Source: Eledone cirrhosa
Taxonomy: Eukaryota
Assembly (NCBI GenBank): GCA_964016885.1
Contig: OZ024759.1
Coordinates: 16,926,001-16,990,000 of the forward strand
Direction of reading: 5' to 3'
DNA: 64,000 nucleotides
Of the stretch, positions 3,451 to 39,791 are shown piece by piece. A program made the position numbers and the translations under genes. Below the pieces are notes generated by a model, which saw only the letters and a program-made list of their open reading frames with translations, ran no database searches and was not told the DNA's origin. Numbering within the stretch: position 1 is the first letter of the stretch; every line of letters starts with the position of its first letter.

Positions 3451-5099
3451 CCCCCAGTATTATCATGGGGTGTAACTCTGTGATAGACTGGCGTTCTGTC
3501 CAGGTGAGGTACCTGTATTTTCAGCCGACCGACTCGGATAAACATCGGTCTAATGAACCAACCTCCGAATTTGAGACAGACTTTAATCTTGCAATCGACT
3601 GACGTCCTATCCAGGGGAAGTCTCTTACCATATTCCTATAACACGGCAGCTGTTATATGTAAGGTTGTAGCTGTCCCTCCTTACCGTCCACAGTTACATC
3701 TAAGGATGGGTCTGTCTTTTAACGTCACTGATATACAGTTGCATCTAACGTCCCTTTATAGTCTATTATGGTAGCTGTACCTCCATACGGCCCACAATTA
3801 CATGTAAGGATGTGTCCCTGATATACAGTCCCTCCTTACCGTCTACATCGAAGACAGCTTATAAGAGGTTGACCTGTATTTTAACATCCTTAAACCTGGA
3901 ATCCATCAAGGTACGTATTAGTCACATTTGTATCGATCTTTTTAAATATTCGTTGCTAAAATGATATATGTAAACGGCATAAATGGAAGTAATTCAGGTG
4001 TTAATATATTTTTCATTTGTAAATTGTTAATGCATTGCTGGTGATATGTGTGTGTTGTTACGGGGTGCACTTATGGTTGTCAATATCAGTCTATACTTCC
4101 TTTGGTGACTGTACAGGCAGTAGATATTTCAGTGGAAGTGTCTTTCACACCTCAGTCTCTTTCCCTCTCGAAGACTCAATGTCCTGTAAGATTTTGTGGC
4201 CAAAAGAGCGGTTAAAAGACATGTTTAACCTGTATAATCTTCTATGGATATCGCTTGACTGTAAACAAAGATTTAGAGACATGTCTAATTTGCGTCTCCA
4301 TCGTAAGGTCTTGCAGTCATCAAAGGATCCTCAATTGTAGAACAGGGTCAGCATCGAACTTCGATAAACCACCACAATTAAACTCCCTAAACACTCCGTT
4401 GGCAGACATCGAAAACCCCATCTTCACAGCACCACCAATGCGTTAATAATTGTCTTATGAAAAAAATATTTAAATCCAAAATTACTTCCCTTTGTTCCGT
4501 TTGCATATATTAATTTTTTTTTCAACAAAATCTTTCAAAAGTACCCATAAGTACCACTATCTAACTCAGTAGAATTGCGGCCTTCGCGGTGGCGTGCGAA
4601 CTGCGTCTCGGACTACCAGTCTCCCTGGCTGGCGTTCTATTCGTGGTGGCGTACGACTGCATCGGCCTGGGACTATTCTGGGCCGGCACATAGATGCAAG
4701 GCCCGTCCCTGACCACCGTGAAGAATTTTTTTTCGAAAATTTTTTAATATGCAAATTAGATAAAAAAAAAAAAAGAAGAAAATCTTTGACATATTATATA
4801 TATATATATGTCGACATATATAATGAGACTTGTCGAAGATTTAATTTAATATGCTAATTTGGAAATTATATTAGAAGAAATTTCTTTTAATAGAATTTCT
4901 AATTTGCATATCCAATATGCTAATTTGGAAATTATATTAGAGGAAATTTCTTATAATATAATTTCTAATTTGCATATTAGAAATTTTTTCTAATATGATA
5001 TTTTCGAAGTTTCTAGATTCTTAAAACCCTTGAAGGTTATTAACATTCTTGGAAGACAGTTAGATTCGAACCTTTTTAACTTATATTCTAAACTTAGAA

Positions 5100-5530
5100 T
5101 ATAACCCTTGATACTTCTTAATACATTCTTACCTAGATTCGAACCTTTGATACTTTCTTTACATACTTCAAGGTTCTTATTACATTCTAACCCTTGATAC
5201 TTCTTACTACATTCTTGACTTACTTAGATTCGAACCTTTGATACTTTCTTTACATACTTCAAGGTTCTTATTACATTCTTACCCTTGATACTTCTTACTA
5301 CATTCTTGACTTAGATTCGAACCTTTGATACTTTCTTTACATACTTCAAGGTTCTTATTACATTCTTACCCTTGATACTTCTTACTACATTTTTGACTTA
5401 CTTAGATTCGAATCTTTGATACTTTCTTTACATACTTCAAGGTTCTTATTACATTCTTACCCTTGATACTTCTTACCACATTTTTGACTTACTTAGATTC
5501 GAACCTTTGATACTTCAAGGTTCATTCTTG
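5100..5530. repeat. Tandem repeat, ~90-93 bp unit, ~4.5 copies
   Basis: TTAGATTCGAACCTTTGATACTTTCTTTACATACTTCAAGG... recurs. Confidence 0.9.
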
Positions 5531-5699
5531 GAAGACAGTTTGATTCGAACGTTCGATGCTTTCTTTACATACTTAAAGGTTCTTGATACTTGGAACCTTG
5601 ATGGTTACTCCATTCTTGGACGACTGTTGGATTCGAACCCTTAATGACACTTTTGGACGAATGTTACATTGGTAATACTGTCTATACATTATTTTTTTT

Positions 5700-7400
5700 T
5701 TTTTGTCAAAATAAACTGAACACAATTCGTATATAATATGTAAACTTTATTCATTTTTGTCAAATAAACTGAACACGATTCGTATAAGATGTTCGACATT
5801 TTTTACGGCAACACAGCATATGACCTCGAAGGCTGGACATCTGTAAAAGGAAATAAAAAGAACATTAAACTTTATAAAATTCTTCAAATTTTGTTCTTTT
5901 ATTATATATACATTTAAAAAGAGGAAACCTTTTCCTACATCAAAGTTACGTAGATTAAAACCTAGGGTGTAATATTCACCATGACCTAAGACGACAGATC
6001 TCAAAAGGTTATTAATAATAACCAGAATTTACAACAATACACGAGGATATCATGAAGGGAACTAGAAATAATATTGTTGGATGGAAACTAAGAGTGTTGA
6101 AAAAAGAAACGAAAATTGTAAATGAAGTTTCTAACGAAAGAAACTAAGAGTATCAAAGAATGTAGCAAGAAGTATCTCATCCAACTGTCTTCCAAGAACG
6201 TAAAGAAAGTATCTAAGGTTCTAATCCAAGGTTTAAGGGGACACGTGTGCGAGAAATCAAGATTCATTGGGTGAATATTTCTTCGAAAGCATGTATACAG
6301 TGTCGAGATGGCTTAATTTAGTTTCTTAGAAGAGGTAACACTATTTGTGTGTGTATTTAGTTTTAAATTTCAAAGAAAGCCACAGAAAATAAAATATGAA
6401 CACAATAACCAAAGTGTGTATCTAATGAAATGTATGTTTTCTGAAGAGTAGAAACAAAATCTATATGAAACTAGTGATTTTGAAATGTCGAGAAAAATTC
6501 TATATGAAACGTATGTTTTCTGAAAAGTCGAAAAAGGAAATCTACATGAAATTGGTGTTTTGTGAAAGGTGTATATCTAATAGAATGTATGTATATAGAA
6601 AACAATATCCAAAATGTGAGCGTTATTGACATGAAGTGTATATATTAGTCCTAGTATAGAGAAAAGAAAACATTACATACCTCTCTACATGAAAGTAATA
6701 TCCAAAATGGTTCTCTTCCAAAGAAGAGTTTAAAAAAGGGGAGATAATTCTAATAAAATTTTGAGCAAAAATCGATTGTTCGCGAGGTCAGGGACAAGTA
6801 GCCAGCCTCCGAAATAGTCCCAGCTGCATAAGCCACGAAGACCTCATAACGATTTGAACTTCAGACACATAGAATGGTCACGCCATACATAGGTAGACGA
6901 CAAAGTCGGAACCGCGCCGCGCCGCAATTCTACTAAGTAAAATTAGTATACTTATAGGTAAAATTTTATTCATTTAAAAAAAAAAAAAAATATAGAAACG
7001 GAAAGGGGTGTAACACGTCTCAAAATATATTTAGTGTGTTATCTCACTCTTATTCCGTTTCTATATTTAAATTAATTTAGAATCTACTAGTATTTTGTAC
7101 ATATATGCAGAACAATTATTATGGAGATAAATATATGTACACATATGTGTGGGTTGTCTTATATATATACATAAGACAATTATTAACGCATTAATAATTG
7201 TCTTATGTATATACATAAGACAATTATTAGTGGTGTTGTGAAGATGGGGCTGTTGTACACATATACACAACAATTGTTATGGAGATAAATATATGTGTGG
7301 GTGTATATGTATATATGCCGAGGAGAGAGAAGAAGGGGGAGCACGTCAGCTCTGATAGAGAAGATCAGAAGTGTGGAGAGAGCGGTTGATAGGTCTAGGT
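5700..7400 (-). repeat. Diverged module copy, direct paralog of 13355-14650
   Basis: Shared blocks in the same order, including GC-rich 6770-6940 vs 14040-14185 and 7316-7402 vs 14562-14647. Confidence 0.85.
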
Positions 7401-8080: not shown

Positions 8081-11000
8081 ATTCTTTTTATTGATAACGT
8101 ATGTAAATGACTCATTTCCTTTTACAGATGTCCAGCCTTCAAGGTCATATGCTGTGTTATTTGTCGTAACAAGTGAGAATGGCGAAGTTTCTGTAAATAA
8201 AAAAAGGTTACATTTTATATACAAATCATGTTCAGTTTATTTTGACAAAAATGAATAAAGAAATCAAGTAGAGGTTTACCAGTTGCTTCAAAAGGTAGAT
8301 GGCCTCCGTAGTACTTTTACCTGTCACAAATCCAAACTATAGAGGTATGTAATGTTTTCTTTGCCCTATACACATACATGTTATTAGATACATACTTTAT
8401 GTCAACAACTCTCACACTTTGGATCTTGTGTTCATGTGGCTTTCTGGCACATCGTCACTCACTCAACATGCTTTCTTTGAAATTAAAACATAATACACAT
8501 ACAAATAGTGTTAGCCCTTCTAAGAAACTAAACTAAACCATCTCGACACTATATACATACTTTCTAACTCAAATTTCTCTCTATAAACCTCATTCTGTAG
8601 ATCTTTCTTTAGAGACATACATATAAAACTATATACTCTCAACTAAGAAAAATATATAAACCTTCTTCTCTATACCTTTCCTTTTTTCTTCTAATAAACC
8701 TCTATACACAGCTACATTTTATTATCTTCTCTATTTCTTTCACACGTGTCCTCTTCTATGTAGAGAGAAACCTTTGTGAGAATCGAACTCACGATTGTAA
8801 AGTCCGACAACTTTACATAAATACTTTGCGCATTGATGTCCAATTATTTCGGCGCATGCGTACTTTAGTGAAAATTAAATGGCCGCATGAAGAACTACAT
8901 GTTTTACAAGGTGAATTAAAAAAACGTTAAAAACTTGGATTTTACTAATTTTACGGAGGTAAAGTAAAGCTTTATTTTATGTTGATCAATTTTATTGAAA
9001 CATTTTCTGTTTATTTCCCTCCATAATGTCAGAAATAATTATTTAAACATTAATTTAGTTTAGCCACATCTTACATTCTAATGTAATACAACACCCCTCT
9101 CATACATATTTCTTGCTCATACGAAATAGTGTATTTTGTTAATTATTATTTAAGCTGGTAAATAATATATTTCTATTTCCCTTCATGATATCCTCGTAAT
9201 TTGTAATCCGTGTTAACTAGATCGATATCGCTTTAACTTTTAACCTACAATCATTTATATTCTTAGTTTCTTTCGTTAAAAACTTCATTTACATTTTCAG
9301 TTTCTTATTTTCCCACCAACAATATTATGTAGACGATAGTTTTGTTTAAGCTACTGCCACATTTCTAGGTCATATGAAATAGAATTTAGCTTATTTTCTT
9401 TATTATTTAAATAATATATTTCTAGTTCCCTTCATGATATCCTGGTGTTTTGTTTTAAATTCGTTTTGGAGGACTTGCTCCTGTCACACATGATGTTGGT
9501 TGCTATATATTCTGGTTATTAATATTAACCAGAATCTTTTGAGATCTGTTGCCTTTGGTCAGGGTGAATATTACACCCGTCACGTTTTGTACCCATTTTT
9601 TTTTTTTAGATATCATGATCGTAATCAAAGATTAACTGTTGATTAATTTAGATATCATGATCGTATTCAAAGATTAACTGTTGGTCAGTGTTAACTAGAT
9701 CGATACCACTTTAACCCTTTACATTCTTAGTTTCTTCTCACGAAACTTTATTTACTTTCTTTGTTCCCTTTCAACACTTCATTTGCATTCTTAGTTTCTT
9801 TTTTCGTCATTGAAAACAACTAAGAATGTAGATGAAGTTTCTAAAGAATGAAATTTAATCGTAATCAGATCGATATTATTAACCAGATCGATACCGCTTT
9901 AACTTTTAATCTACGTAACAAGTAACCGTTTACAATCCTCTTTATGCATTTTATGTACATTCCTAGTTTCTTTCTTTATACACTTCATCTACCTTCTTAT
10001 TTCCTTTCTTTAAGAAACTTCATATAGATTCTTAGTTTCCTCTATTTAAATGTTTTTTTTATAATAAAAGACAAAATTGGATGAATTTTATAAAGTTTAC
10101 ATTCTTTTTATTGACAACGTCTGTAAATGACTTTTATTTCTTTTACAGATGTCCAATCATCGAGGTCATATGCTGTGTTGTTTGCCGTAACAAGTAGGAA
10201 TGTCGTAGTTTTTGTTAATAAAGAAAGTTTACATCTTATATACGAATTGTGTTCAGTTTATTTTGCTAAAAATGAATAAAGAAATCAAGAGTCTACAAGA
10301 AACTGAGTAAGACGCGCTATAAAGAACGTAAGTGTATATGAAGTTTCTAAATAAAGAAACTAAGAGGTAGATAAAGTTTCTTGAAAGAAACTAAGAATGA
10401 TGAAGTTACTAAATCAAGAAACTAAGAGGTAGATAAAGTTTCTTGAAAGAAACTGAGAATGATAAATTTTCTAAATAAAGAAACTAAGAATGCTTTTGAA
10501 ATTGTCGAAAAGAAAATCTATGAAACGGTACCCTCTTTTTAAAATTTTTTTATTCAAGGGAGGTAACTCTGTAATATTTTGAAACGAATTACCTCCCTTT
10601 GAAACACCTTCGTCACCGTCGTTACCACCGTCGGCACCTTCGTAACCGTCGTCACCATTACCGCCGCCACCTGGTGGCGGAGGAAAAGATACCGACGAAG
10701 ACGGCGGTGCACCTTCGTCTTCGTCGGTATCTTTTCCTCCGCCACCAGGTGGCGGCGGTAAAGATACCGACGAAGACGGCGGTGCACCTTCGTCGTCGTC
10801 GGTATCTTTTCCTCCGCCACCAGGTGGCGGCGGTAAAGATACCGACGAAGACGGCGGTGCACCTTCGTCGTCGTCGGTATCTTTTCCTCCGCCACCAGGT
10901 GGCGGCGGTAATGGTGACGACGGTTACGAAGGTGCCGACGGTGGTAACGACGGTGACGAAGGTGTTTCAAAGGGAGGTAATTCGTTTCAAAATATTACAG

Positions 11001-13539
11001 AGTTACCTCCCTTGAATAAAAAAAATTTTAAAAAGGGTACCGTTTCATAGATTTTTTTTTCGACAATTTCAAAAGCATTCTTAGTTTCTTTATTTAGAAA
11101 ATTTATCATTCTCAGTTTCTTTCAAGAAACTTTATCTACCTCTTAGTTTCTTTATTTAGAAACTTCATCATTCTTAGTTTCTTTCAAGAAACTTTATCTA
11201 CCTCTTAGTTTCTCTATTTAGAAACTTCATATACACTTACGTTCTTTATAGCGCGTCTTACTCAGTTTCTTGTAGACTCTTGATTTCTTTATTCATTTTT
11301 GGCAAAATAAACTGAACACAATTCGTATATAAGATGTAAACTTTCTTTATTAACAAAAACTACGACATTCCTACTTGTTACGGCAAACAACACAGCATAT
11401 GACCTCGATGATTGGACATCTGTAAAAGAAATAAAAGTCATTTACAGACGTTGTCAATAAAAAGAATGTTAAACTTTATAAAATTCATCCAATTTTGTCT
11501 TTTATTATAAAAAACATTTAAATAGAGGAAACTAAGAATCTATATGAAGTTTCTTAAAGAAAGGAAATAAGAAGGTAGATGAAGTGTATAAAGAAAGAAA
11601 CTAGGAATGTACATAAAATGCATAAAGAGGATTGTAAACGGTTACTTGTTACGTAGATTAAAAGTTAAAGCGGTATCGATCTGGTTAATAATATCGATCT
11701 GATTACGATTAAATTTCTTTCTTTAGAAACTTCATCTACATTCTTAGTTGTTTTCAATGACGAAAAAAGAAACTAAGAAAGTAAATGAAGTGTTGAAAGG
11801 GAACAAAGAAAGTAAATGAAGTGTTGAAAGGGAACAAAGAAAGTAAATAAAGTTTCGTGAGAAGAAACTAAGAATGTAAAGGGTCAAAGTGATATCGATC
11901 TAGTTAACACTGACCGACAGTTAATCTTTGATTACGATCATGATATCTAAATTAATCAACAGTTAATCTTTGATTACGATCATGATATCTAAAAAAAAAA
12001 AATGGGTACAAAACTTAAGTTTTATAGCCAAAACGTGACGGGTGTAATATTCACCCTGACCAAAGACAACAGATCTCAAAAGATTCTGGTTAATATTAAT
12101 AACCAGAATATATAGCAACCAACATCATGTGTGACAGGAGCAAGTCCTCCAAAACGAATTTACAACAAAACACGAGGATATCATGAAGGGAACTAGAAAT
12201 ATATTATTTAAATAATAAAGAAAATAAGCTAAATTCTATTTTATATGACCTAGAAATGTGGCAGTAGCTTAAACAAAACTATCGTCTACATAATATTGTT
12301 GGTGGGAAAATAAGAAACTGAAAATGTAAATGAATTTTCTAACGAAAGAAACTAAGAATATAAATGAATGTAGGTTAAAAGTTAAAGCGATATCGATCTA
12401 GTTAACACGGATTACAAAATACGAGGATATCATGAAGGGAAATAGAAATATATTATTTACCAGTTTACATAATAATTAACAAAATACACTATTTCGTATG
12501 AGCAAGAAATATGTATGAGGGGGGTGTTCTATTACATTAGAATGTAAGATGTGACTAAACTAAACTAATGTTTAAATAATTATTTCTGACATTATGGAGG
12601 GAAATAAACAGAAAATGTTTCAATAAAACTGATCAACATAAAATAAAGCTTTAGTTTACCTCCGTAAAATTAGTAAAATCCAAGTTTTTAACGTTTTTTT
12701 AATTCACGTTGTAAAACATGTAGTTCTTCATGCGGCCATTTAATTTTCACTAAAGTACGCATGCGCCGAAATAATTGGACATCAATGGGCAAAGTATTTA
12801 TGTAAAGTTGTCGGACTTTACAATCGTGAGTTCGATTCTCACAAAGGTTTCTCTCTACATAGAAGAGGACACGTGTGAAAGATATAGAGAAGATAATAAA
12901 ATGTAGCTGTGTATAGAGGTTTATTAGAAGAAAAAAGGAAAGGTATAGAGAAGAAGGTTTATATATTTTTCTTAGTTGAGAGTATATAGTTTTATATGTA
13001 TGTCTCTAAAGAAAGATCTACAGAATGAGGTTTATAGAGAGAAATTTGAGTTAGAAAGTATGTCTATAGTGTCGAGATGGTTTAGTTTAGTTTCTTAGAA
13101 GGGCTAACACTATTTGTATGTGTATTATGTTTTAATTTCAAAGAAAGCATGTTGAGTGAGTGACGATGTGCCAGAAAGCCACATGAACACAAGATCCAAA
13201 GTGTGAGAGTTGTTGACATAAAGTATGCATCTAATAACATGTATGTGTATAGGGCAAAGAAAACATTACATACCTCTATAGTTTGGATTTGTGACAGGTA
13301 AAAGTACTACGGAGGCCATCTACCTTTTGAGGCAACTGGTAAACCTCTACTTGATTTCTTTATTCATTTTTGTCAAAATAAACTGAACATGATTTGTATA
13401 TAAAATGTAACCTTTTTTTATTTACAGAAACTTCGCCGTTCCCACGTGTTACGACAAATAACACAGCATATGACCTTGAAGGCTGGACATCTGTAAAAGG
13501 AAATGAATGTCATTTACATACGTTATCAATAAAAAGAAT
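8081..13539. repeat. ~5.5 kb palindrome (long inverted repeat) centred near 10785
   Basis: Arms are reverse complements (e.g. 8224<->13394, 10554<->11015) with scattered substitutions and small indels. Confidence 0.95.
10600..10965. repeat. GC-rich nested-hairpin core, 3 x 75-bp units
   Basis: Unit starts at 10686, 10761, 10836; each is AAGATACCGACGAAGACG..CGTC(T/G)TCGTCGGTATCTT plus a CCGCCACC-w-GGTGGCGG hairpin. Confidence 0.95.
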
Positions 13540-15009
13540 ATTAAACTGTATTAAATTCTTTCTATTTTGTCTTTTATTATATATAGATTTAAATAGAGGA
13601 AACAAGAAAACCTTTCCTACATCGAGGGAGGTAACTAAACTAAGAATGTAAATGAAGTTTAATGTAAATCAAGTTTCTAAAGAATGAAACTAAGAATGGA
13701 AATTAAGTGTTGAAAACGAACAAAAAAAGTAAATGAAGTTTCGTAAGAAGAATCTAAATAGTTCTATGCTACGTAGGTTAAAATGATATCGATCTAGTTA
13801 ATACTGACCAACAGTTAATCTTTGATTACGCTGATGATATCTAAAAAAAAAATTTCGTTCAAAACTAGACGGGTATAATATTAATCTTGATCAAAGATGA
13901 CAGATCCAAAAGATTCTGGTTAATATTAAGATGTGCCAGAAAGCCACATAAAAAGCCTCTTCACATAAACACAATATCCAAAATACATGTGAGGTTTATT
14001 GACATAAACTGTGTATCTAATAAAATGTATGTGTATGATTGTTCGCGAGGTCCGGGACGCAGGCCAGCAAGTAGCCAGCCTGCAAATACTTCCAGCTGCA
14101 TAAGCCACGAAGACCTCGTAACGATTCGAACTTCAGACACATAGAATGGTCACGCCATACATAGACAACGAAGTCCGAACCGCTACTTATAGGTAAAACT
14201 TTATTCATTAAAAAAAAAAAAAAAAAAAAAAAATAGAAACGGCAAGGGAGGTAACACGTCTCAAAATATATTTCGTGTGTTGTCGCACATTCCGTTTCTA
14301 TATTTAAATTGTAGAATCTACAAGTATTTTGTACATATATACAGAACAATTATTACGGAGATAAATATATGTACACATATGTGTGAGTGTGTGTATATAT
14401 ATATATATATATATGTTTCAAGGAAGATGATAAGCTACAGGAGAGGTTCACAGTAGAAGTGGGGAACAGGTTCAGTGCTCAGACGAGGGAGAGATTGGAG
14501 GGACTAAGGAGAGTGTGATGGGGAGGTACCGGTACTTTACCAATGTAAGTGAGACCCTGGTGCCGAGGAGAGAGAAGAAGAGGAAGCACGTCAGCTCTGA
14601 TAAAGAAGATCAGAAGTGTGGAGAGAGCGGTTGACAGGTCTAGGTGTAAGGAGAGCTGGATGATCATAGGGAGGAAGAGAAGGGGTTCGAGTCAGATCCA
14701 GGGAACAGGACCCGAGGATAGGAAGAGGAAATGGCTGGACCATTTTAGGGCCCTCCGCAGCTGTATAAGGAACTGGATATTGAGACACGACCCTTCACCA
14801 GAGAGGAGCTTCCGAGACCCAAAAAGAAAATCAAAGAGGGCTAGGCTCATGAGTGGCATCAGAAGTGTGATTTTGGTTAGAGCATTGTGCTTGCAATCGA
14901 AAGGTTGTGAGTTGGATTCTCGGACCGGGTGATGCTTGTGTCCTTGAACAAGACACTTTATTTCACGTTGCTCTAATTTACTCAGCTGTAGAAGGGGGAG
15001 GGGGCAGCT

Positions 15010-18690: not shown

Positions 18691-21199
18691 TTTGATGTAA
18701 GATGAATCAGTAGCTTATTTGAAATTTAATTTGACAGGAGGCGCGGGCTGAAAAAAGATAAGGAAACCCTGGTGAAGATTAAGTTTCTTCAGAAAAAAAC
18801 AAAGAATGTTTTTGAAAGTGTCGAAAAAAAAATCTATCTGATATAATGTATTTGAAAAATCTAAATCAAAATTACGTTTTCAGAAAAAAAAATCAAGGGA
18901 ATATCCAAGGGAAGATAATTCACATTTTTTTAGCAAAAAGTCTGCGAATTAATTTCAAGGTGGTCCCAGGTCCACTTAGCAATCGCACACCACCACGTAG
19001 TCACATAGACTGGGAGACCGAGATGCAGCTCGCGCATCGCCTCGAAGGCCTCAATTCTACTGATTAGAATACTCCTACTTATGGGTACTTTTCACATTTT
19101 TTTGTTAAAAAAAAAAATAAATAAAATAAATAAACGAAACGAAGGTGGGTAAGAAATTTAATAGCGCCTTATGACGCTCTTTGAATTATTTTTTCATTAA
19201 ATTATGAAATTATATTCATTTAGAACATCGTCTTGAGACCAAGGCACCAACAATTTTCTTGCGAAAATCAGTATTCCGAAAGAATTACCTCCATTCATTT
19301 CGTTTATATATTTTTTTTCAATGGACAATAAACTTACCTCCGTATAGACGACAGTCCAGCTACATTAATGACGTGCTTCTTTCGCCCTCTAAGCTTATGA
19401 CCAGGGCTTAGTTGACCGTAGGAGATTCTATGGAACAAATACATCCTAAACAAAACTAACGTTTAAATAACTGTTTCTGACATTATGGAGGGCGGGCTTT
19501 GCGTTGTGTTCTTGAGCAAGACACTTTATTTAACGTTGCTCCAAAAATGAGTTGGACAACATCAGTGCCGTGGAGGTATGCCATGTCGACGGGAACTAGA
19601 AATTTACCAACTAAAATAATAAAAACAATACGCTATTTCGTACGACCAATATGTGGGAGGTGTTGTGTTACATTAGAAGGTAAGGTGTGGCAGAAGCTAA
19701 ACAAAAGTAACATTTAAATAATTATTTCTGACATTAGAGAAATAAACAGAAAATGTTTTAATAAAACTGATCAACGTAAAGCTTTACTTTACCTCCGTAA
19801 AATTAGTAAAATCCAAGTTTTTAACGTTTTTATTTTTTTAATTCACGTTGATGTTTTTTAGTTTAAGTGGGTGAAGGTGTGCCAGAAAGCCACAGTAAAG
19901 AAAATACCTCACATAAACACAATATAAAAAATGTGAGAGTTATTGACATAATGTGTGTATCTCATAAAATGTATGTGTATAGAGAGATGGTGCTAGTATA
20001 CAGCAAAGAAAACATTATCCAAAATGAGAAAAGTTCCATGAAGAGGAAGTAACTCTAAATAAAGGGAGATAACTCTAATCAAATTTAGAATAAGTAGCAC
20101 TGCTTCTTTCACCCTCTAACCTTGCATTGTCCATGAGATGTATACGTACTCAAACTGTTTTTTCAGACTCTACCCTGGTATTGACCAGGGTTTAGCTGGC
20201 CCTAGCAGAGCCTACAAGCAAACCATGCCATAAAGGCATTATTTTCACCCTCTAACCTGGCTTTGACGAGGAGATCCTATGGTAAGTATACACACTAAAA
20301 CTGCTTCTTTCGCCCTCTAATCTGGTATCGACTATGGTTTATCTAGCCTTAGGAGAGCCTGTAAGTACTTTGGCCCCCTAACCTGGCATTCCAATACTAA
20401 TTTGAGGCAGAGTAACATCAAGCTTTCAAGGTTTAGGGAGATAGCAATGAATAGTTCACATGCATGTTCTTGCTATATGAAAGAGATGAAGGTGAGATAC
20501 ACAAAACACTACCAAAGGAGGCAAGAAAGCAAGCATGGATTGAGAATTGCCTCATTCTTGTAGTCACAAAAGGATCAACAATTTCAATGGACTCCTTAAC
20601 AATACACACATATATATGTGATCAAAGTAAGACACAGTCAGACTTGTCTCATAGTGTGGACGACCCGTCTGACCCATGCAAGCATGGAAAATAAGACGTT
20701 TGACATTTATTAGTGTCCTATATGTTAGTGAAGGATGGGTACACTGGTTCACAACAACACCCAGATGGTGGCATGCTAAACATAATGAGGAGTGGGACAC
20801 TTGGAGAAGAGATGGGCACTGTCATGATGGAGACAGTAAAACATAGAATAGCACTCCTACAGCTAGCTGCACCAGCTATGGGAAACTGATTAATGTATAT
20901 TAGGGATCCCAAGGTCTGATTTTATCACCTCATCCCACCTGCACCTTTTTATACATTTGTCACCCCTCATACGCATCACAGTCTCCTCTCTTGCACACTG
21001 CATCTGATCCCTCTTATGCCCAGTTTCTCTCTCAGTTCATTAATAATGTAATATTTAAAAATGTGGTGGGAAGCAAATGAACCTACCTTGCGTCTCTACT
21101 TGATTCCAGAACGAATGTCCAATGCTCCGACATCCATGTGACTTACGTCCAACTCAGAATTACAAGCCTCTCTTGCTCACGTCTGCAATAGGCCAAATC

Positions 21200-26818: not shown

Positions 26819-26988
26819 TTATGATTCACTGACAGGAATACTTTCATGTACATATGATAATTTACCAGTAGAAAAATCAACAACTGTTTGGCCTTCTCCA
26901 CGCAGCACCCACTTTGTTGTTAGTAACCCTTCAACCCCAACAGGGCCCCGTGCATGGATACGACTTGTACTAATTCCTACTTCAGCAC
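26819..26988 (-). CDS. ALDH18A1: P5CS coding exon 14 (terminal)
   Basis: [27 protein letters not shown]...stop TAA; 170 nt. Confidence 0.97.
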
Positions 26989-27387
26989 CTGAAAGAATAA
27001 AAATAACATACAATATTTTCTAGAATATAAGACACAAACTTATTTTGAAGAACAAATTTCATGGAAAAAAATAAATGTGAATATTCAAGATTCCTATGTG
27101 GAAGGAAGTTGCAGTAAAGGAAGACAAAGGAAAACCTGGATTGAGGTGGTTAGAGCTGATCTTAAACCCTGAATGTTATAGAAAAGATGGATGTGTGCAT
27201 CTATGGGAAAGCATCGATAAGATGAGAGAGAAACTGCATATAACAGAAATAAGATGTAGTGTGCAAGAGAGAAGACTGTGTTGGTATGGTCATGATTGTT
27301 GAGTAAAGAACTGGGTATAAGAAGAATCAGATGTAGTGTACAGGAGAGAAGACTGTGTTAGTATCAATATGTGATGTGTATGGATGT

Positions 27388-28075
27388 TGACCAATGTCAC
27401 ATCAGACCAGTGTTACAGTAGACCAGTGTTACAGTAGACCAATGTCACATCAGACCAGTGTTACATCAGACCAGTGTTACAGTAGACCAGTGTCACATCA
27501 GACCAGTGTTACAGTAGACCAGTGTTACAGTAGACCAGTGTCACATCAGACCAGTGTCACATCAGACCAGTGTTACAGTAGACCAGTGTCACATCAGACC
27601 AGTGTTACATCAGACCAGTGTTACAGTAGACCAGTGTCACATCAGACCAGTGTTACAGTAGACCAATGTCACATCAGACCAGTGTTACAGTAGACCAATG
27701 TCACATCAGACCAGTGTCACATCAGACCAGTGTTACAGTAGGCCAATGTCACATCAGACCAGTGTTACAGTAGATAAATGTCACATCAGACCAGTGTTAC
27801 AGTAGACCAATGTCACATCAGACCAGTGTTACAGTAGACCAATGTCACATCAGACCAGTATTACAGTAGACCAGTGTCACATCAGACCAGTGTTACAGTA
27901 GACCAATGTCACATCAGACCAGTGTTACAGTAGATAAATGTCACATCAGACCAGTGTTACAGTACACCAATGTCACATCAGACCAATGTCGCATCAGACC
28001 AGTGTTACAGTAGACCAGTGTCACATCAGACCAGTGTTACAGTAGACCAGTGTCACATCAGACCAATGTCACACC
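27388..28075. repeat. 16-bp minisatellite with variant units, ~43 copies
   Basis: GACCAGTGTTACAGTA / GACCA(A/G)TGTCACATCA alternation. Confidence 0.95.
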
Positions 28076-28110
28076 AAAACAATAAATCATAAGGAGGTAT
28101 GGTTACTTAC

Positions 28111-28206
28111 CTAGTCCAAACCTGTAGCCATCTGAGAAACGTGTGCTGATATTGTGGAAAACACAAGCACTGTCGACTGTTTTCAGAAATCTTTCAGCAA
28201 CAGCAG
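28111..28206 (-). CDS. ALDH18A1: P5CS coding exon 13
   Basis: [29 protein letters not shown]; 96 nt. Confidence 0.96.
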
Positions 28207-28244
28207 CTGTAGGATATGGAAAGAACAGGAGATTAGAACATTTA

Positions 28245-28575
28245 CATCATTTTACGTCCACTTTTCCCTGCTTGCAAGGGTGGGACGGGAACTGATTCTG
28301 GCTTGATTTCTAAAGCTGGATGCCCTTCCTAACACCAACCTCATTTACAATGAGTGCTGGGTGCTTTTTTGCCGTGGCACCTCCACGACCACTTTGCAGT
28401 GGAATGATAGGGACCCCAGTCCCTATCATCTCATTTCTACAGCTGAGTAAACTGGAGCAATGTGAAATAAAGTGTCTTGCTCAAGGAAACAACACATCAC
28501 CCGGTCTGAGAATTGAACTCACAACCTTTCGATTGCAAGCCCAATGCTCTAACCACTAAGCAATGTGCCTCCATC
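28245..28575 (-). mobile_element. tRNA-derived CORE-type SINE
   Basis: A/B boxes, CCTTGAGCAAGACACTT core, GAT tail. Confidence 0.85.
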
Positions 28576-28760
28576 ACAATATAAAATGATAGCGCTGGGG
28601 ACACGACAAAAGACACCCAGTCCACTCTGTAATGTGGTAGGGCTGGGGCCTCGACAAAAGACACCCAGTCCACTCTGTAATGTGGTAGGGCTTGGGCCAG
28701 ACTTGACATGGACGACCTGACTAACCCAAGCAAGCATGGAAAATGGAGGTTAAATGGTGA

Positions 28761-28795
<35 letters not shown>

Positions 28796-28872
28796 TATAC
28801 TTACATCTGTGTGTATATATGTCTATCTGTGTACATGTATATACTTATATATATCTATCTGTGTGTATATAT

Positions 28873-29260
28873 ATGGCTTAGTGGTTAGAGTATTGGCCTT
28901 GCAATCGAAAGGTTGTGAGTTCAATTCTCTGACTGGGTGATGTGTTGTTTCCTTGAGCAAGACACTTTATTTCACATTGCTCCAGTTTACTCAGCTGTAG
29001 AAATGAGATGATAGGGACTGGGGTCCCTATCATCATTCCACTGCAAAGTGGTCGTGGAGGTGCCACGGCAAAAAAGCACCCAGCCCACACTGTAATGTGG
29101 ACGTGAAGGTGCTACGGATAAAAAAGCACCCAGCACTCACTGTAAATGAGGTTGGTGTTAGGAAGGGCATCCATCTGTAGAAATCAAGACAGAATCAGTT
29201 CCCGTCCCACCCTTGCAAGCAGAGAAAAGCGGACGTAAAATGATGATGATGATGATGATA
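28873..29260 (+). mobile_element. tRNA-derived CORE-type SINE
   Basis: TGGCTTAGTGG A box, GAGTTCAATTC B box, (GAT)n tail. Confidence 0.88.
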
Positions 29261-29434
29261 TATGTCTATGAATAATTGTATAAATATCATCATCATCACC
29301 GTTCTATGTCCATTTTTCCATGCTAGCATGGGTTAGACGAGTTGTCCTGTTGTTGGCAATGCTAGGTCAGGTGACCATGTCTTAGTCATACAGAACTGAT
29401 TTTGACTTGGTTTCAACAGCAGGATGCCAACCTA

Positions 29435-31095
29435 TTTACAGTGAGTACTGGGTACTTTTTAATGTGTCACCTACATGACCACTTTACAGTGTGGACTGGG
29501 TACTTTTTAATGTGACACCTACATGACCACTTTACAGTGAGTACTGGGTACTTTTTAATGTGTCACCTACATGACCACTTTACAGTGAGTACTGGGTACT
29601 TTTTAATGTGTCACCTACATGACCACTTTACAGTGTGGACTGGGTACTTTTTAATGTGTCGCCTACATGACCACTTTACAGTGTGGACTGGGTACTTTTT
29701 AATGTGTCACCTACATGACCATTTTACAGTGTGGACTGGGTACTTTTTAATGTGTCTCCTACATGACCACTTTACAGTGAGTACTGGGTACTTTTTAATG
29801 TGTCACCTACATGACCCCTTTACAGTGTGGACTGGGTACTTTTGAATGTGTCACCTACATGACCACTTTACAGTGTGGACTGGGTACTTTTTAATGTGTC
29901 ACCTACATGACCACTTTACAGTGAGTACTGGGTACTTTTTAATGTGTCACCTACATGACCCCTTTACAGTGTGGACTGGGTACTTTTTAATGTGTCACCT
30001 ACATGACCACTTTACAGTGAGTACTGGGTACTTTTTAATGTGTCGCCTACATGACCCCTTTACAGTGTGGACTGGGTACTTTTTAATGTGTCACCTACAT
30101 GACCCCTTTACAGTGTGGACTGGGTACTTTTTAATGTGTCGCCTACATGACCCCTTTACAGTGTGGACTGGGTACTTTTTAATGTGTCACCTACATGACC
30201 CCTTTACAGTGTGGACTGGGTACTTTTTAATGTGTCACCTACATGACCCCTTTACAGTGTGGACTGGGTACTTTTTAATGTGTCACCTACATGACCACTT
30301 TACAGTGTGGACTGGGTACTTTTAAATGTGTCACCTACATGACCCCTTTACAGTGTGGACTGGGTACTTTTTAATGTGTCACCTACATGACCCCTTTACA
30401 GTGTGGACTGGGTACTTTTTAATGTGTCACCTACATGACCACTTTACAGTGTGGACTGGGTACTTTTTAATGTGTCACCTACATGACCCCTTTACAGTGT
30501 GGACTGGGTACTTTTTAATGTGTCACCTACATGACCCCTTTACAGTGTGGACTGGGTACTTTTTAATGTGTCACCTACATGACCCCTTTACAGTGTGGAC
30601 TGGGTACTTTTTAATGTGTCACCTACATGACCCCTTTACAGTGTGGACTGGGTACTTTTTAATGTGTCACCTACATGACCCCTTTACAGTGTGGACTGGG
30701 TACTTTTTAATGTGTCACCTACATGACCCCTTTACAGTGTGGACTGGGTACTTTTTAATGTGTCACCTACATGACCCCTTTACAGTGTGGACTGGGTACT
30801 TTTTAATGTGTCACCTACATGACCCCTTTACAGTGTGGACTGGGTACTTTTTAATGTGTCACCTACATGACCCCTTTACAGTGTGGACTGGGTACTTTTT
30901 AATGTGTCACCTACATGACCACTTTACAGTGTGGACTGGGTACTTTTTAATGTGTCACCTACATGACCACTTTACAGTGTGGACTGGGTACTTTTTAATG
31001 TGTCACCTACATGACCCCTTTACAGTGTGGACTGGGTACTTTTAATGTGTCACCTACATGACCCCTTTACAGTGTGGACTGGGTACTTTTTTGCT
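29435..31095. repeat. 48-bp minisatellite, ~34 copies, amplified from a SINE-body segment
   Basis: 16-aa periodic ORFs; unit resembles TTTACAGTGTGGACTGGG-G-TTTTT in neighbouring SINE copies. Confidence 0.95.
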
Positions 31096-31454
31096 GTGCC
31101 ACCATCACGACCAGTTTACAGTGTGGGCTGGGGGCTTCACTGGATGTATACTTTGGTCTGTCCTCATGGGAGATGTATAGGAGGGTGGAGTGTGGCATAC
31201 TATATATATGCTTCAGCTTCGGCCTGTGCCCGTGGAAAGTTGGGTCTTCTGTATTATTGCATAATGCCAGAGATCTTTGTCCTTTGTCATCGCCTTTGAG
31301 AGGTGCAATTGGGCAAGGTGGGCTTTTATCACCTCATCCCAAGTCTTCCTATGTCTCCCTACTCCAAGGCTTCCATTGACTTTGAGCGCTCTTATGCCTA
31401 GTTTCTCTCTCAGTTCGTTTATGCTTTGCCGTCCACTTATATTATTATTACACA

Positions 31455-31645
31455 GGGCAGTGGATTGGCAGTATCGGTAGAGAGTCGGACGCCATGCTTT
31501 GCAGCATAGGAGTTACGTCCCTTTACGGTCTGAGTTCAAATCCTGCCGAGGTTAACTTTGCCTTTCATCCTTATGGGGTCGATAAAATAAAGTACCAGTA
31601 ATGCACTGGGTAATTGCTGGCCTTGTGCCAAAAGTAGAAACAAAT
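31455..31645 (+). mobile_element. MetaSINE-like SINE (minus copies at 44630-44820, 46435-46622, 49765-49948; older copies at 41990-42600, 55040-55110, 58020-58180)
   Basis: GAGTTCAAATC B box followed by GCCTTTCATCCTT..GGGGTCGATAAAATAAAGTACCAG. Confidence 0.8.
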
Positions 31646-31789
31646 ATTATTACACATCCATTGGAGCATGCAAGCTTCATTTCTTTCCAATCTACTCAAG
31701 TCTTCTGCATACAGCGCCCAGGTCTCACTACCATATATAAATGGACATATATTTTTAAAAAATCCTAAAAATATCCAAATTCAGCTTAC

Positions 31790-31976
31790 CGTTTTCAGTG
31801 AGGATGGTCTCTGTGTGAGCACTGCCATACTTGTGAATGTGAGAAATGGCATCATCAACATCGTCTACAATTTCAACAGCACATTCTAAACAGCTATACT
31901 CCATATTCATACGAACTGCTGGAGAAGGCCCAAATTTCAGTAAGCTTGTTAAACGAGGTCCAGCATGAACTTTCAC
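31790..31976 (-). CDS. ALDH18A1: P5CS coding exon 12
   Basis: VKVHAGP...EY..LEC...AISHIHKYGSAHTETILTEN; 187 nt. Confidence 0.97.
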
Positions 31977-32953
31977 CTGTCAGAAAAGTTAAGAAAATGA
32001 TCACTAATAAGATACAAAGGAGAAATGTTTAACCCTTTAACATTTACTATTGTATTTTCACAGTAAAGGCTTTACTTCAGATAATATCGAATCTATGAGA
32101 TTTTGATATTATTCACTTTGAGAACAAATGTAGGTATGAGCAGCCAGTTGTGGCTGGTTTGAACAGAAAGCGGTGAGAGTTCTGGCCGGATATGGCTGGT
32201 TTAAATGCTAAAGGGTGAAACATTAATACACCCTATTTCAATTATTTTCTGTGGAATTTTGAAAGGTTTACTAAATTTATTAATTATTTCTTTACTAAAA
32301 TACTAACTTCACATATGGTTCTTATACTAAATTACGTTGGATGATTTTAATTTAAATCCTTTGTCACTACATTTCAAATGTAATATAATTTGTGGAATAT
32401 TTTGAGAGATTTACTATCTTTATTATTTCATTATAAGATAGTAACTTAACCTATGGTTCTTATATAAAATTTTGTTGGAAGATTTTAATTTAAATAGGAA
32501 CTCTTTCAAAGGGATGATTCTGTTTCCTAGAACCAGAGCTGGTATCAAAAGGGTTAAAAAAACCCTGTACATTTACACTACACATCATAAACAACTGTCT
32601 ACACTTACAGTTTATATCATAACCATTTGTCTACACTTACAGTTTATATCATAACTATTTCTATAAACTTACATTTTATATATTAGCCATTTGACTACAA
32701 TTACACTTTACATCATAACCACTTATATACATTTACACATTATATCATAACCATTTGACTACACTTACACCATCACCACTTATATACATTTACACATTAT
32801 ATCATAACCATTTGACTACACTTACATTTTACATCATAACCACTTATATACATTTACACATTATATCATAACCATTTGACTACACTTACATTTTACATCA
32901 TAACCACTTATATACATTTACACATTATATCATAACCATTTGACTACACTTAC

Positions 32954-33075
32954 ATTTTCCAACTTAAACATTTCAAATATTTTATCAAACACGTCAGTTC
33001 TGAAGAGTTGCCGATGTATAAGGAGGGTTTCCATTGCATTACAAGCAGCTGGGTAATCACATTTGGAGTCTTTCA
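32954..33075 (-). CDS. ALDH18A1: P5CS coding exon 11 (catalytic Cys)
   Basis: [20 protein letters not shown]; 122 nt. Confidence 0.97.
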
Positions 33076-33094
33076 CTGTAAATAGAGAAAGTAT

Positions 33095-34025
33095 ATATAT
33101 ATGAATAGCAGGTTGTATGATGCCTGCATACGAACAGCAATGTTGCATGGTAGTGAGACCTGGGCATTGTGTGCAGAAGATATACGCAGACTAGAGAGGA
33201 ACGAAGCTTGCATGCTCCGCTGGATGTGTAATAGTAACATACGTGAACGGCAAAGCATAAGCGAACTAAGGAAAAAATTAGAAATAAGAGGGATCAGATG
33301 TTGTTTACTCGAGAGAAGGCTACGTTGGTATGGTCACGTGATGCGCATGAAAGACGACAGCTGTATAACAAAGTGCAGGGCAATAAAGATAGACGGTAGC
33401 TACGGAGTAGGCAGACCCAGAAAAACCTGGGACGAGCTGATAAATTCTGACCTCACACACTTACACCTCTCCAAGACAATGTCACTGGACCGAGACCTTT
33501 GGCGGTACTCAGTAATAGAGAAGACCCGCCTTACCTAAATACAAAGTAAAACCTACTACAGTCAGTAGGCATCTCTAACAAAATACACCCCCGTCCCACC
33601 ACCCCCACCCCATCCACACCGCCCCTTTCAATGTAAAGTTATGTTGGTGCCACAACATCCAGGCCGAAACAAATGAGATCGTGTAGACACAGTCCACGCT
33701 GTAATGTGGTCGTGTAGGCAACACGGTAAAAACCTCCCAGCCCCACACTGTAAATGTGGTTGGTGTTAGGAAGGGCATCCAACTGTAGAAAACCCGCCAG
33801 ACAGTCCACGCTGTAATGTGGTCGTGTAGGCAACACGGTAAAAACCTCCCAGCCCCACACTGTAAATGTGGTTGGTGTTAGGAAGGGCATCCAGCTGTAG
33901 AAAACCCGCCAGACAGTCCTATGCGAGCAAGACAATCACTCTTGCCTCAAGTGGGACTACCCCCGTCCAAACCCATGCAAGCGTAGAACACGGACGTTAA
34001 ACGTTGATGATGATGATGATGATGA
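33095..34025 (+). mobile_element. 5'-truncated RTE-like LINE 3' end with (GAT)n tail
   Basis: MLHGSETW...RRLRWYGHVMR...GRPRKTW; near-identical copy at 43010-43785, shorter copy at 52515-53055. Confidence 0.88.
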
Positions 34026-34567
34026 TATGTTATATCATCATCATCATCATTGTAAATAGAGAAGGTATTATATATGTTGTATCAACATCGTCACTATAAA
34101 TAAAGATCATCATCATCATCTTCACATATATATATGTTATATCAGCATCATCATCTTCTTCGCCCACTTATTCCTGAAAGGGTCATGGGGGCAGAGTCCT
34201 CAAACACTACCTGCAGTGGGTCCTGTCAGAAGCAACCATCTCCAACTGATCCAGCTGGATCCCCAAACATGACCAGCCAATGGATGTTATCCAACCATCT
34301 TGCTCAGGGTCTACCCCTGGCTCTCCTGCCAGTTTTTTTACCCATAAAATCTGTCCAGTGATTCTCTCCTGAGACATTCTAACCACATGCCAAGAGTATC
34401 AGAGCTGTCATCTCTCAATTCGGAGAAGTACCTGGAGTGACTCTCTAAAATCAAAATGGCGCTCCAGCACAGTCGAGGTTTAATAACTGAAACCAGTAAA
34501 AAACAATAAAATAATATATGAATATGTACAGAAAATATAAAACTTTATAGAAGAACATCTCTCTTAC

Positions 34568-34763
34568 CAATTTCAATGACTTTATTGGGGTCAGCATCTT
34601 TATCTATGTAGACATGGCATACACCTTCACTGTGTCCCAACACAGGAATACCTTTGCTCATTTCCTGAATCTTGGACACCAATTCATTGGATCCTCTTGG
34701 AATAACGAGGTCAATATATTCATCTAGTGACATCAAATCTTCAATGTCTTCACGTCGACTCAC
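34568..34763 (-). CDS. ALDH18A1: P5CS coding exon 10
   Basis: IDLVIPRGS...[16 protein letters not shown]; 196 nt. Confidence 0.97.
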
Positions 34764-34974
34764 CTGAAATTATACATTAATTCATAATTCCCTGTCCTCT
34801 AATACACACCACCACATATACTTGCAGGTCTTGAATAATCGTCCACCCCCTCCGTTAATTAATTTTTCTAACCCCCAAAACTTATTATCCTTTTAGCATA
34901 TACACTACTCTATATATACTATTGTATTTTTGCAGTAAAGGCTTTACTTTAAATAATCTCTCACATGAAACGCT

Positions 34975-36080: not shown

Positions 36081-36198
36081 TAAGCCTGATGCTCTAACCA
36101 CGATACTAATGTTTAAATAACATATTACTTATTGTAGTCATAACTACAATACACAATCACAGAACAGCATATAAAAATAAATAATGACATATACTTAC

Positions 36199-36336
36199 TA
36201 GAGAGACTGCTTCTTTCGGTACATAAGGCTCAAGGGCATCTTGGACGAGTTCTTGTAAAAGTTTGTTACTGTTAGAAGCTTCCTTCCCACCTTTTAGCAA
36301 CAAACCATTGGCACTGGCAATGGCAAGAGCTGCAAC
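36199..36336 (-). CDS. ALDH18A1: P5CS coding exon 9
   Basis: [24 protein letters not shown]...; 138 nt; AG/GT bounded. Confidence 0.96.
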
Positions 36337-36847: not shown

Positions 36848-36881
<34 letters not shown>

Positions 36882-36984
36882 CAGTGTATATATATATATA
36901 TATATAGTGTATATATATATATATATATATACACACATGGTGCATGTATTGGACAGGTTCTCTCTCAGCCCATATCTAACATAT

Positions 36985-39760: not shown

Positions 39761-39791
39761 TTACATATATGTATGTAGGCATGTATACTGC

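What the first reader, a model, noticed from the sequence alone, without database searches (positions are those of the whole stretch)
10545..11025. Hairpins-within-hairpins GC-rich axis with 75-bp periodicity
Seen: in very AT-rich surroundings, a CpG-rich core of three 75-bp units. Each has an 18-bp stem around GGTGCACC and is joined to the next by a CCGCCACC-w-GGTGGCGG hairpin; the core is flanked by further AGGGAGGTAA..TTACCTCCCT hairpins. It can fold in several alternative cruciform registers and has strong triplet periodicity (GGT/GAC/GAA). Inference: it resembles the product of iterative snap-back (rolling-hairpin-like) synthesis, as at parvoviral or other hairpin-telomere junctions, and may be the origin or resolution site that generated the palindrome.
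Basis: partly seen in the sequence, partly recalled or inferred. Interest (0 to 1): 0.75.

Follow-up and report, generated by a model that had tools for sequence, protein, structure and literature searches.

The report
Fold-back axis of octopus mirror transposon
In a likely octopus genome, this GC-rich stack of hairpins is the centre of a 5.4-kb mirror-image duplication of a non-coding repeat; it likely formed when DNA folded back on itself and a 75-base piece then slipped into three same-direction copies, and the whole unit likely spread afterwards as a foldback-type jumping element, with no sign of a viral hairpin end.

Summary
The core (60% GC, three 75-bp units, four small hairpins, flanking 11-bp hairpins) is the axis of a 5.4-kb palindrome (8081-13539; arms 1.5% diverged) in an octopod genome, about 13 kb past the P5CS stop codon. 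The rolling-hairpin reading is only half right. Two nested fold-backs explain the hairpin-in-hairpin build. But the three units lie head to tail in one orientation, and their junctions are not self-complementary, so the 75-bp period points to slippage, not repeated snap-back. No Rep/NS1 gene, MVM-type NS1 site, ribozyme or viral match was found. Each arm is one copy of a non-coding, subrepeat-rich element with diverged relatives nearby; short-read contig depth suggests hundreds of relatives. In one sample the core never ran into other sequence and seemed to sit at several near-identical loci of about three units. Best reading: a head-to-head dimer working like a non-autonomous foldback transposon. 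Membership is unproven: no target-site duplication, and the left end is lost. The scan has no look-alike sequence elsewhere (three look-ups), though it noted other foldbacks and palindromes in this genome.

The parts
8081..10544 (+). Left arm of the palindrome: AT-rich, non-coding, with 31/34/62-bp A-rich subrepeats. Its outer 0.9 kb or so is missing relative to the right side; it abuts a LINE-like fragment (label recalled)
   Evidence: (39 substitutions and 6 indels in 2574 aligned bases)
10556..10599 (.). Left AAGGGAGGTAA..TTACCTCCCTT hairpin (11 bp, 22-nt loop); the motif recurs in family relatives
   Evidence: z -4.2; 13 matches at <=1 mismatch vs 1.21 expected; 9 of 13 in family copies
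10600..10663 (-). Outer GC segment: degenerate 9-bp minisatellite (five units within one mismatch of GGTGACGAM) that gives the triplet period
   Evidence: sequence, triplet print-out, TRF 21-bp rows
10664..10738 (+). Unit 1: small hairpin plus self-complementary unit around GGTGCACC; centre of a perfect 46-bp inverted repeat with a 12-nt asymmetric loop; likely the original fold-back axis
10739..10888 (+). Units 2 and 3: identical head-to-tail copies in the same orientation as unit 1, sharing one base change and an asymmetric junction; likely slippage products
10889..10969 (+). Fourth small hairpin and mirror of the outer GC segment
   Evidence: mirror alignment
10970..11013 (.). Right AAGGGAGGTAA..TTACCTCCCTT hairpin
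11025..13539 (+). Right arm, mirror of the left arm; holds an internal direct duplication (11279-11620 vs 13350-13709, 86% at aligned bases)
13540..14414 (+). Unmirrored continuation of the right arm with the family's terminal module (GC-rich segment 14037-14185, A-tract, AAGGGAGGTAA), ending at a (TA)n run
4416..7249 (.). Older monomeric relative (c1), colinear with one arm, with terminal modules at both ends in inverted orientation (75% alike); holds two small 'tandem self-palindrome' repeats (4848-4985, 7154-7232)
18740..20090 (+). Third, rearranged relative (c3): inner-arm module followed directly by the ordinary terminal GC segment, then arm pieces (89% alike)
26825..61788 (-). Host P5CS (ALDH18A1) gene, 14 exon-like segments; identifies an octopod host and places the palindrome about 13 kb beyond the stop codon

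Best explanation
The core is the axis of a 5.4-kb palindrome whose arms are two copies of a non-coding repeat element joined head to head; it likely arose by fold-back copying at a short inverted repeat, was likely expanded to three 75-bp units by slippage, and the symmetric dimer likely spread as a non-autonomous foldback-type DNA transposon. Steps: (1) shown: each arm is colinear with a monomeric relative of about 3 kb that has A-rich subrepeats and inverted terminal modules. (2) Inferred: near its left end this lineage carried a 9-bp GC minisatellite with an old, now decayed fold-back centred on CCGCCACC-w-GGTGGCGG. (3) Inferred: a break near there let the strand fold back around GGTGCACC, leaving the 12-nt unpaired loop, and copying produced the mirrored arm. 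(4) Shown: the palindrome thereby holds the small hairpin as a direct repeat 75 bp apart. Inferred: a nascent strand that had run a few bases into the arm re-annealed at the upstream repeat, and the new unit was duplicated once more. (5) Inferred from contig depth: the finished core exists at several near-identical loci. With two identical outward-facing ends, the dimer would suit the transposase that moves the family. The core itself is then a passive middle domain that can extrude cruciforms, not a replication origin.
For: Arms differ by 39 substitutions and 6 indels in 2574 bases, so the palindrome is real and young. c1 is colinear with the right arm and has inverted terminal modules. Inner vs outer halves at the small hairpin: 27/39 and 29/39 in register; beyond the shared 9 nt, 19/30 (p 0.025) and 21/30 (p 0.0009) against codon shuffles. 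3 of 3 units in one orientation, 2 of 2 internal junctions asymmetric. In run X1, 45 contigs were laid on the core region with no loose end between 10600 and 10965. Single contigs next to the axis have depth 132 (exact), 66 and 105 (one difference each), against 7-9.5 for diverged relatives, and their 31-mers occur twice in this locus. Depth classes 1056:488:398 lie between three units (4:2:2) and four (5:3:2). Subrepeat depth reaches about 2800. None of 53 frames tested reaches a Pfam cut-off. Long TIRs with internal tandem repeats, a non-coding middle and many rearranged copies describe foldbacks (PMC4079207 passages); fold-back priming at short inverted repeats is described in PMC7999016 (passages).
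Against: No target-site duplication was found, and the left outer end is missing, so transposition of the dimer is not shown. No matching transposase was found. c1 and the right arm are followed by the same 86-bp flank piece (95% alike) and their terminal modules are 93% alike, which points to local duplication at this locus. Copy number rests on contig depth without a single-copy baseline, and only 8 of 46 pieces were shown. The origin of the GC core is unknown: it is unrelated to the 4 terminal GC segments (8 tests, p 0.08-0.99). One 97-nt contig (depth 16, five differences, only one listed) could hold an inverted unit; its letters were not shown.
Confidence: 0.5

Rival explanations
1. Same fold-back and slippage history, but no transposition of the dimer: a local repair accident inside a decaying repeat cluster, with any extra copies made by segmental or tandem duplication.
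For: Three relatives cluster within 3.9-20.1 kb and none appears in the other 44 kb. c1 and the right arm share a downstream flank piece. The left end is cut off with no TSD.
Against: Contig depth suggests several near-identical cores with point variants and hundreds of family relatives. A long palindrome of a repeat with inverted termini is the usual foldback build (PMC4079207, PMC3573991 passages).
Confidence: 0.28
2. A two-armed retro-insertion: a non-coding RNA copied onto both ends of a break by a Penelope-like enzyme, with the two cDNAs joined at the hairpin core.
For: The right end stops at a (TA)n run. Scan notes report many two-armed, Penelope-type palindromic insertions in (TA)n in this genome (unchecked). 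The arms hold splice-like signals (motif reading recalled).
Against: No hammerhead or other ribozyme at Rfam's gathering score in the window, or at E<=1 in 3800-20400, and no simple hammerhead core pattern in the palindrome. The left end is not in (TA)n. The monomer has inverted terminal modules, not tandem monomers.
Confidence: 0.1
3. One reading: the core is the left-to-left dimer bridge of a linear, hairpin-ended replicon (parvovirus-like rolling-hairpin element or its non-coding satellite) integrated in the chromosome.
For: The dimer is joined at one end of a linear monomer through an asymmetric loop. The core was seen only between arms, at raised depth. CpG is not depleted. The same structural position in c1 also holds tandem self-palindromes.
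Against: Units are head to tail with asymmetric junctions. No Pfam match in 53 frames. 0 MVM nick sites and 0 (ACCA)2 in 8081-14414. No match in viral contigs, metagenomes (44, 63), prokaryote genomes (64) or phages (74). Non-family DNA at 1-1000 and 2001-3000 also has CpG o/e near 0.9.
Confidence: 0.08
4. Assembly or library artefact (fold-back chimeric reads).
For: No listed contig spans the stretch. Other samples X4-X7 show no depth on the GC core, though X5-X7 are reduced-representation runs.
Against: The arms differ by 39 substitutions and 6 indels, among them 20- and 31-bp events. Short-read contigs cover the core and its unit junctions at high depth in X1 and X2.
Confidence: 0.04

Closest known systems
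Foldback-type non-autonomous DNA transposons: Tetris (PMC4079207, abstract and passages), FB4 (PMC8277862, passages), MuTAnT (PMC4486113, passages)
   Same: Kilobase inverted arms with internal tandem repeats, non-coding middle, no ORF, many rearranged and truncated copies; one end at (TA)n as in MuTAnT.
   Different: Arms are longer (2.6 kb or more against up to 1.7 kb in Tetris), and each arm is itself a whole monomeric element. The middle is a nested, slippage-expanded hairpin. No TSD or transposase was identified.
Galileo copies with two extended or recombinant TIRs (PMC3573991, passages)
   Same: Internal sequence recruited into longer inverted arms by repair-type copying; many structural classes in one genome.
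   Different: There the proposed route is repair of one TIR from the other. Here the 12-nt loop and nested hairpins point to intrastrand fold-back, and no P-type transposase is known.
Fold-back priming at short inverted repeats (review PMC7999016, passages)
   Same: A short inverted repeat with an unpaired loop at the centre of a large inverted duplication.
   Different: Described for somatic amplification in yeast and cancer cells. Here it is apparently germline, of finite length, and followed by tandem expansion of the axis.
Parvovirus dimer bridge, MVM/LuIII (PMC1185569, passages)
   Same: Left-to-left joining of a linear unit through an asymmetric GC-rich hairpin.
   Different: No NS1 gene, no (ACCA)2 or CTWWTCA site, no flip/flop alternation among the three units, non-coding arms.
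Head-to-head transposon dimers in Drosophila (PMC5932611, passages)
   Same: Two copies of one element in inverted tandem.
   Different: Those arise by double insertion and keep termini and a TSD at the junction. Here the left terminal module is replaced by a fold-back core, and the arms are much closer to each other (98.5%) than to any other nearby copy (75-93%).

Membership tests
Foldback-type DNA transposon (features from PMC4079207) | Long terminal inverted repeats | tested here: met
   2.6-kb arms, 98.5% alike; the left arm lacks the outer 0.9 kb
Foldback-type DNA transposon (features from PMC4079207) | Tandem subrepeats inside the arms | tested here: met
   31/62-, 34- and 21-bp arrays in both arms
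Foldback-type DNA transposon (features from PMC4079207) | Non-coding middle domain, no conserved ORF | tested here: met
   No curated Pfam match in 53 frames of 50 aa or more (5 mirror frames of 58 dropped); no protein relative of the core frames
Foldback-type DNA transposon (features from PMC4079207) | Target-site duplication of 8-10 bp | tested here: inconclusive
   Left end missing, right end in (TA)n; by eye no direct repeat flanks the palindrome or c1, whose right end is rearranged
Foldback-type DNA transposon (features from PMC4079207) | Dispersed copies at unrelated sites | tested here: inconclusive
   Contig depth suggests several cores and hundreds of relatives, but their flanks were not seen; no genome is held
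Foldback-type DNA transposon (features from PMC4079207) | Autonomous partner with matching termini | not testable with these tools
   No host assembly held; the mariner transposase at 40007-41086 showed no hit to the family
Parvovirus-type rolling-hairpin replicon (PMC1185569) | NS1/Rep initiator gene | tested here: not met
   no such frame in 3900-14900; longer frames elsewhere in the window were read by eye and only 4 were scanned
Parvovirus-type rolling-hairpin replicon (PMC1185569) | NS1 binding repeats (ACCA)n and nick site CTWWTCA near the bridge | tested here: not met
   0 and 0 in 8081-14414; tests MVM-type sites only
Parvovirus-type rolling-hairpin replicon (PMC1185569) | Flip/flop inversion of the hairpin between rounds of copying | tested here: not met
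   3 of 3 units in one orientation at this locus; other copies unresolved (record 2)
Parvovirus-type rolling-hairpin replicon (PMC1185569) | Covalently closed or free hairpin ends | not testable with these tools
   Only contigs and reduced-representation reads were available
Penelope-mobilised retrozyme-type palindromic insertion (features from scan notes and recall) | Hammerhead ribozyme in the unit | tested here: not met
Penelope-mobilised retrozyme-type palindromic insertion (features from scan notes and recall) | Both outer ends in (TA)n | tested here: not met
   Only the right end; the left end may have been deleted later
Fold-back priming product (PMC7999016) | Short inverted repeat with unpaired loop at the axis of an inverted duplication | tested here: met
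   12-nt asymmetric loop inside a perfect 46-bp inverted repeat, mirrored arms

The most novel reading that the evidence does not exclude
The family is the non-coding remnant or satellite of an unknown linear, hairpin-ended DNA replicon of octopods. Monomers such as c1 are integrated genomes, this locus is a left-to-left dimer bridge, and the GC core is its priming or resolution hairpin, served in trans by an HUH or resolvase enzyme; later slippage added units. The raised depth would then partly reflect extrachromosomal copies.
Probability: 0.08. Interest if true: 0.8.

Novelty: new variant of a known kind. Interest (0 to 1): 0.3.

Why it matters
If the best reading holds, the locus is a readable record of how a foldback transposon can be born: a monomeric element folds back at one end and gains two identical outer ends, and its axis then grows by slippage. 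The order of events can be read from the sequence, and the model is directly testable in an octopus assembly. The family was not found in the papers searched. It is still a known kind of structure made by known processes. If transcribed, the arms would give 2.6 kb of double-stranded RNA in an animal known (recalled) for heavy RNA editing; expression was not tested.

Tried and rejected
Whole-genome search: no genome is held.

Coding origin of the core: frames read as Pro/Gly/Asp repeats, but no relative among longer proteins (170 candidates, none at E<=1), near-length proteins (48 candidates, none at E<=0.01), the ESM Atlas, Pfam or viral contigs (83 pattern matches, none confirmed). A degenerate 9-bp minisatellite explains the triplet period.

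Viral, phage, prokaryote or metagenome source: 0 matches. Seven of these were exact-pattern scans and cannot see diverged relatives.

Structured RNA: Rfam gathering gave 2 borderline tRNA-like hits outside the region. At E<=1 all 36 hits were below gathering score, 34 of them generic miRNA-hairpin models.

Core derived from the family's terminal GC segments: no similarity in 8 tests.

CpG richness as a sign of foreign DNA: rejected, since non-family DNA at 1-1000 and 2001-3000 is also near 0.9 and depletion is strongest over the P5CS gene.

Polinton-like AGTAG termini (recalled feature) at 4568/6934: rejected because similarity between copies runs on beyond them.

A decayed coding gene in the arms: tblastx shows no frame that stands out.

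I first read the loose end at 10574 as a second fold-back axis; on inspection it is only a relative's version of the flanking hairpin. Records 3 and 4 (four differences each) match what an exact piece laid at its mirror position would give, so I did not count them as inverted units.

Expression: no RNA holder listed. X4-X7 show no depth on the GC core; not used as evidence, because X5-X7 are reduced-representation runs and X4 is small and of unknown kind.

Literature: searches returned 0 papers; one search returned 4 whose listings looked unrelated.
Full report
OBSERVATION. The core 10600-10970 is 59.8% GC with CpG o/e 1.54, between arms of about 30% GC. TRF finds period 75, 3.3 copies, 97% matches at 10664-10911. 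There are three GGTGCACC centres, four CCGCCACC-w-GGTGGCGG hairpins and two 11-bp AAGGGAGGTAA hairpins. The 18-bp stem is perfect only in unit 1, where it grows to a perfect 46-bp inverted repeat around a 12-nt loop; units 2 and 3 share one mismatch. Folding is far beyond shuffles (-302.5 against -79.4 kcal/mol, 0 of 100). Of four hand-built registers the single long hairpin is best (-228) and two alternatives score -183 and -175. The triplet period comes from a degenerate 9-bp minisatellite.

SETTING. The core is the axis of a palindrome from 8081 to 13539. The arms differ by 39 substitutions and 6 indels in 2574 aligned bases, among them 20- and 31-bp events, which argues against a chimeric-read artefact. 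The host is an octopod: the best hit of the exon at 61462-61788 is Octopus bimaculoides P5CS, which maps as 14 segments from 61788 to 26825 on the minus strand. The palindrome lies about 13 kb beyond the stop codon. None of 53 frames of 50 aa or more from 3900-14900 reaches a Pfam cut-off (5 mirror frames of 58 were dropped).

THE ARMS ARE COPIES OF A REPEAT ELEMENT. The right arm runs on, unmirrored, to a terminal module (GC-rich segment, A-tract, AAGGGAGGTAA) that ends at (TA)n near 14414. The left arm lacks this part and abuts a LINE-like fragment (label recalled from motifs; Pfam gave no hit). Two relatives lie nearby. c1 (4416-7249) is colinear with one arm and has terminal modules at both ends in inverted orientation, 75% alike; its right module is 93% like that of the right arm. 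The match of c1's inner repeats to 10970-11290 is weak (p 0.015). c3 (18740-20090) has the inner-arm module followed directly by the ordinary terminal GC segment. So the palindrome is a head-to-head dimer in which the left terminal module is replaced by the core. The four terminal GC segments resemble each other (6 of 6 pairs p<=0.027) but not the core (8 tests, p 0.08-0.99). AAGGGAGGTAA occurs 13 times at up to one mismatch against 1.21 expected, 9 of 13 in family copies. As a recurring subterminal motif it may be a protein-binding site (inference).

HOW THE CORE WAS BUILT. The halves on either side of the small hairpin are a decayed inverted repeat: 27/39 and 29/39 alike in register, and beyond the shared 9 nt 19/30 (p 0.025) and 21/30 (p 0.0009) against codon shuffles. 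That is an older fold-back. A younger one around GGTGCACC mirrors everything outward, as fold-back priming at a short inverted repeat predicts (PMC7999016, passages). The 75-bp period has another cause. Back-and-forth copying between hairpins would invert the middle unit and leave self-complementary junctions (inference). Instead 3 of 3 units read GGC|TTC, where an inverted one would read GAA|GCC, and 2 of 2 internal junctions are TTCCT..CGGTA, not TTCCT..AGGAA. The junction carries five bases of the arm, as expected if a nascent strand ran past the last small hairpin and re-annealed at the first, 75 bp back. Units 2 and 3 share a change that unit 1 lacks, so they are likely a second duplication. 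The same kind of structure, a self-palindromic unit repeated head to tail, occurs twice more in c1 (4848-4985, 7154-7232).

READ EVIDENCE. Seven runs were listed; four hold part of the stretch (shares 0.49, 0.42, 0.42, 0.06). X1-X3 are one sample and may be the assembly's own source, so they are not independent support. In X1, 45 contigs lie on the core region; the four loose ends are at 10574, 10983, 11025 and 11034, none inside the GC core. So in this sample the core was not seen beside other sequence; branches overlapping by only 30 letters may have been missed. Single contigs next to the axis have depth 132 (exact), 66 and 105 (one difference each). An exact arm contig has 69 in X1 and 68 in X2, diverged relatives 7-9.5 in X1, and the most conserved subrepeat sums to about 2800. 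The 31-mers of the axis-near pieces occur twice in this locus, those of the arm contig 1.7 times on average. If 69 is this locus alone, the core stands at 2-3 loci. If 8 is single-copy depth, it stands at up to about 12 copies. There was no single-copy baseline, the tool warns that summed depth is no copy number, and only 8 of 46 pieces were shown. Summed depth over the three junction classes is 1056:488:398, between three units (4:2:2) and four (5:3:2); this is rough, but it suggests one founder junction copied with its arms. X4 and X5 have no depth on the GC core. X6 and X7 gave 3 reads, all on the flanking hairpin only. One 97-nt contig (depth 16) has five differences, one listed, and could hold an inverted unit; this is unresolved.

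RIVALS. Local duplication without transposition is the main rival (0.28). The family is clustered in the first 20 kb of the window, c1 and the right arm share an 86-bp downstream piece (95%), and no TSD was found. A Penelope-type two-armed insertion (0.10) is suggested by the (TA)n end and by unchecked scan notes on this genome, but no ribozyme was found. The rolling-hairpin replicon (0.08) lacks an initiator gene, MVM-type NS1 sites (PMC1185569, passages), flip/flop alternation and any viral match. Artefact: 0.04.

COMPARISON WITH KNOWN SYSTEMS. It works like a foldback element as described for Tetris (PMC4079207, abstract and passages): long arms with tandem subrepeats, non-coding middle, rearranged copies. 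Similar features appear for FB4 (PMC8277862, passages), Galileo with extended TIRs (PMC3573991, passages) and MuTAnT in (TA)n (PMC4486113, passages). Head-to-head dimers by double insertion are known (PMC5932611, passages) but keep their termini at the junction. Membership is not shown, because TSD, dispersal and transposase remain open. No supplements were read. Searches for an octopus or cephalopod foldback or palindromic element found nothing relevant, in a library that lacks most subscription papers; Repbase was not available. The scan holds no look-alike sequence and no note near this place.

VERDICT. A real, young, probably multi-copy palindrome whose axis records two fold-backs and two slippage steps. 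It is most likely the middle of a foldback-type dimer of an apparently undescribed octopod repeat family, not a viral hairpin end. Interest 0.3; new variant of a known kind.

Noticed in passing
window 4848-4985 and 7154-7232: Two more head-to-tail repeats of self-palindromic units (66-bp and about 35-bp period) inside relative c1; the first sits where the core sits in the palindrome.
   Followed up: partly
window 8120-8178, 10141-10199 and mirrors 13498, 11427; 5848 (minus): A conserved 45-bp block between a strong acceptor-like signal and a donor-like signal, in 5 copies, reading toward the axis; 4 of 6 differences between two copies fall at third positions of one frame. No protein match found.
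   Followed up: partly
window 8840-8915 and mirror 12700-12780: CpG-rich patch with NRF1-like and YY1-like motifs (recalled) followed by a donor-like site: a possible promoter in each arm, pointing at the axis.
   Followed up: no
window 5104-5515: 91-bp tandem repeat in c1 whose minus strand carries a tRNA B-box-like motif (recalled) in each unit.
   Followed up: no
window 7316-7401 and 14561-14646: The same 86-bp piece (95% alike; RTE-like LINE by recall) follows both c1 and the right arm, hinting at a local direct duplication about 7.2 kb apart.
   Followed up: partly
window 3938-4541: Two family end-pieces face each other around about 350 bp of unrelated sequence with open frames of 61-105 aa; no Pfam match at cut-off.
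   Followed up: partly
window 40007-41089 (+): 360-aa mariner-type transposase frame in a P5CS intron (Transposase_1 E 8.8e-22, HTH_48).
   Followed up: partly
window 37079-37522 (-): Frame resembling a Penelope-type reverse transcriptase fragment (recalled); no Pfam match.
   Followed up: no
window 26825-61788 (-): P5CS gene body with large intronic minisatellites (32-, 48-, 102-bp periods) and low CpG o/e, consistent with gene-body methylation (inference).
   Followed up: partly
window 56579-56923 / 62324-62668 and 28245-29270: Inverted pairs (95-98%) of a SINE-like repeat with a tRNA-like head, in P5CS introns and just upstream of its first coding exon.
   Followed up: no
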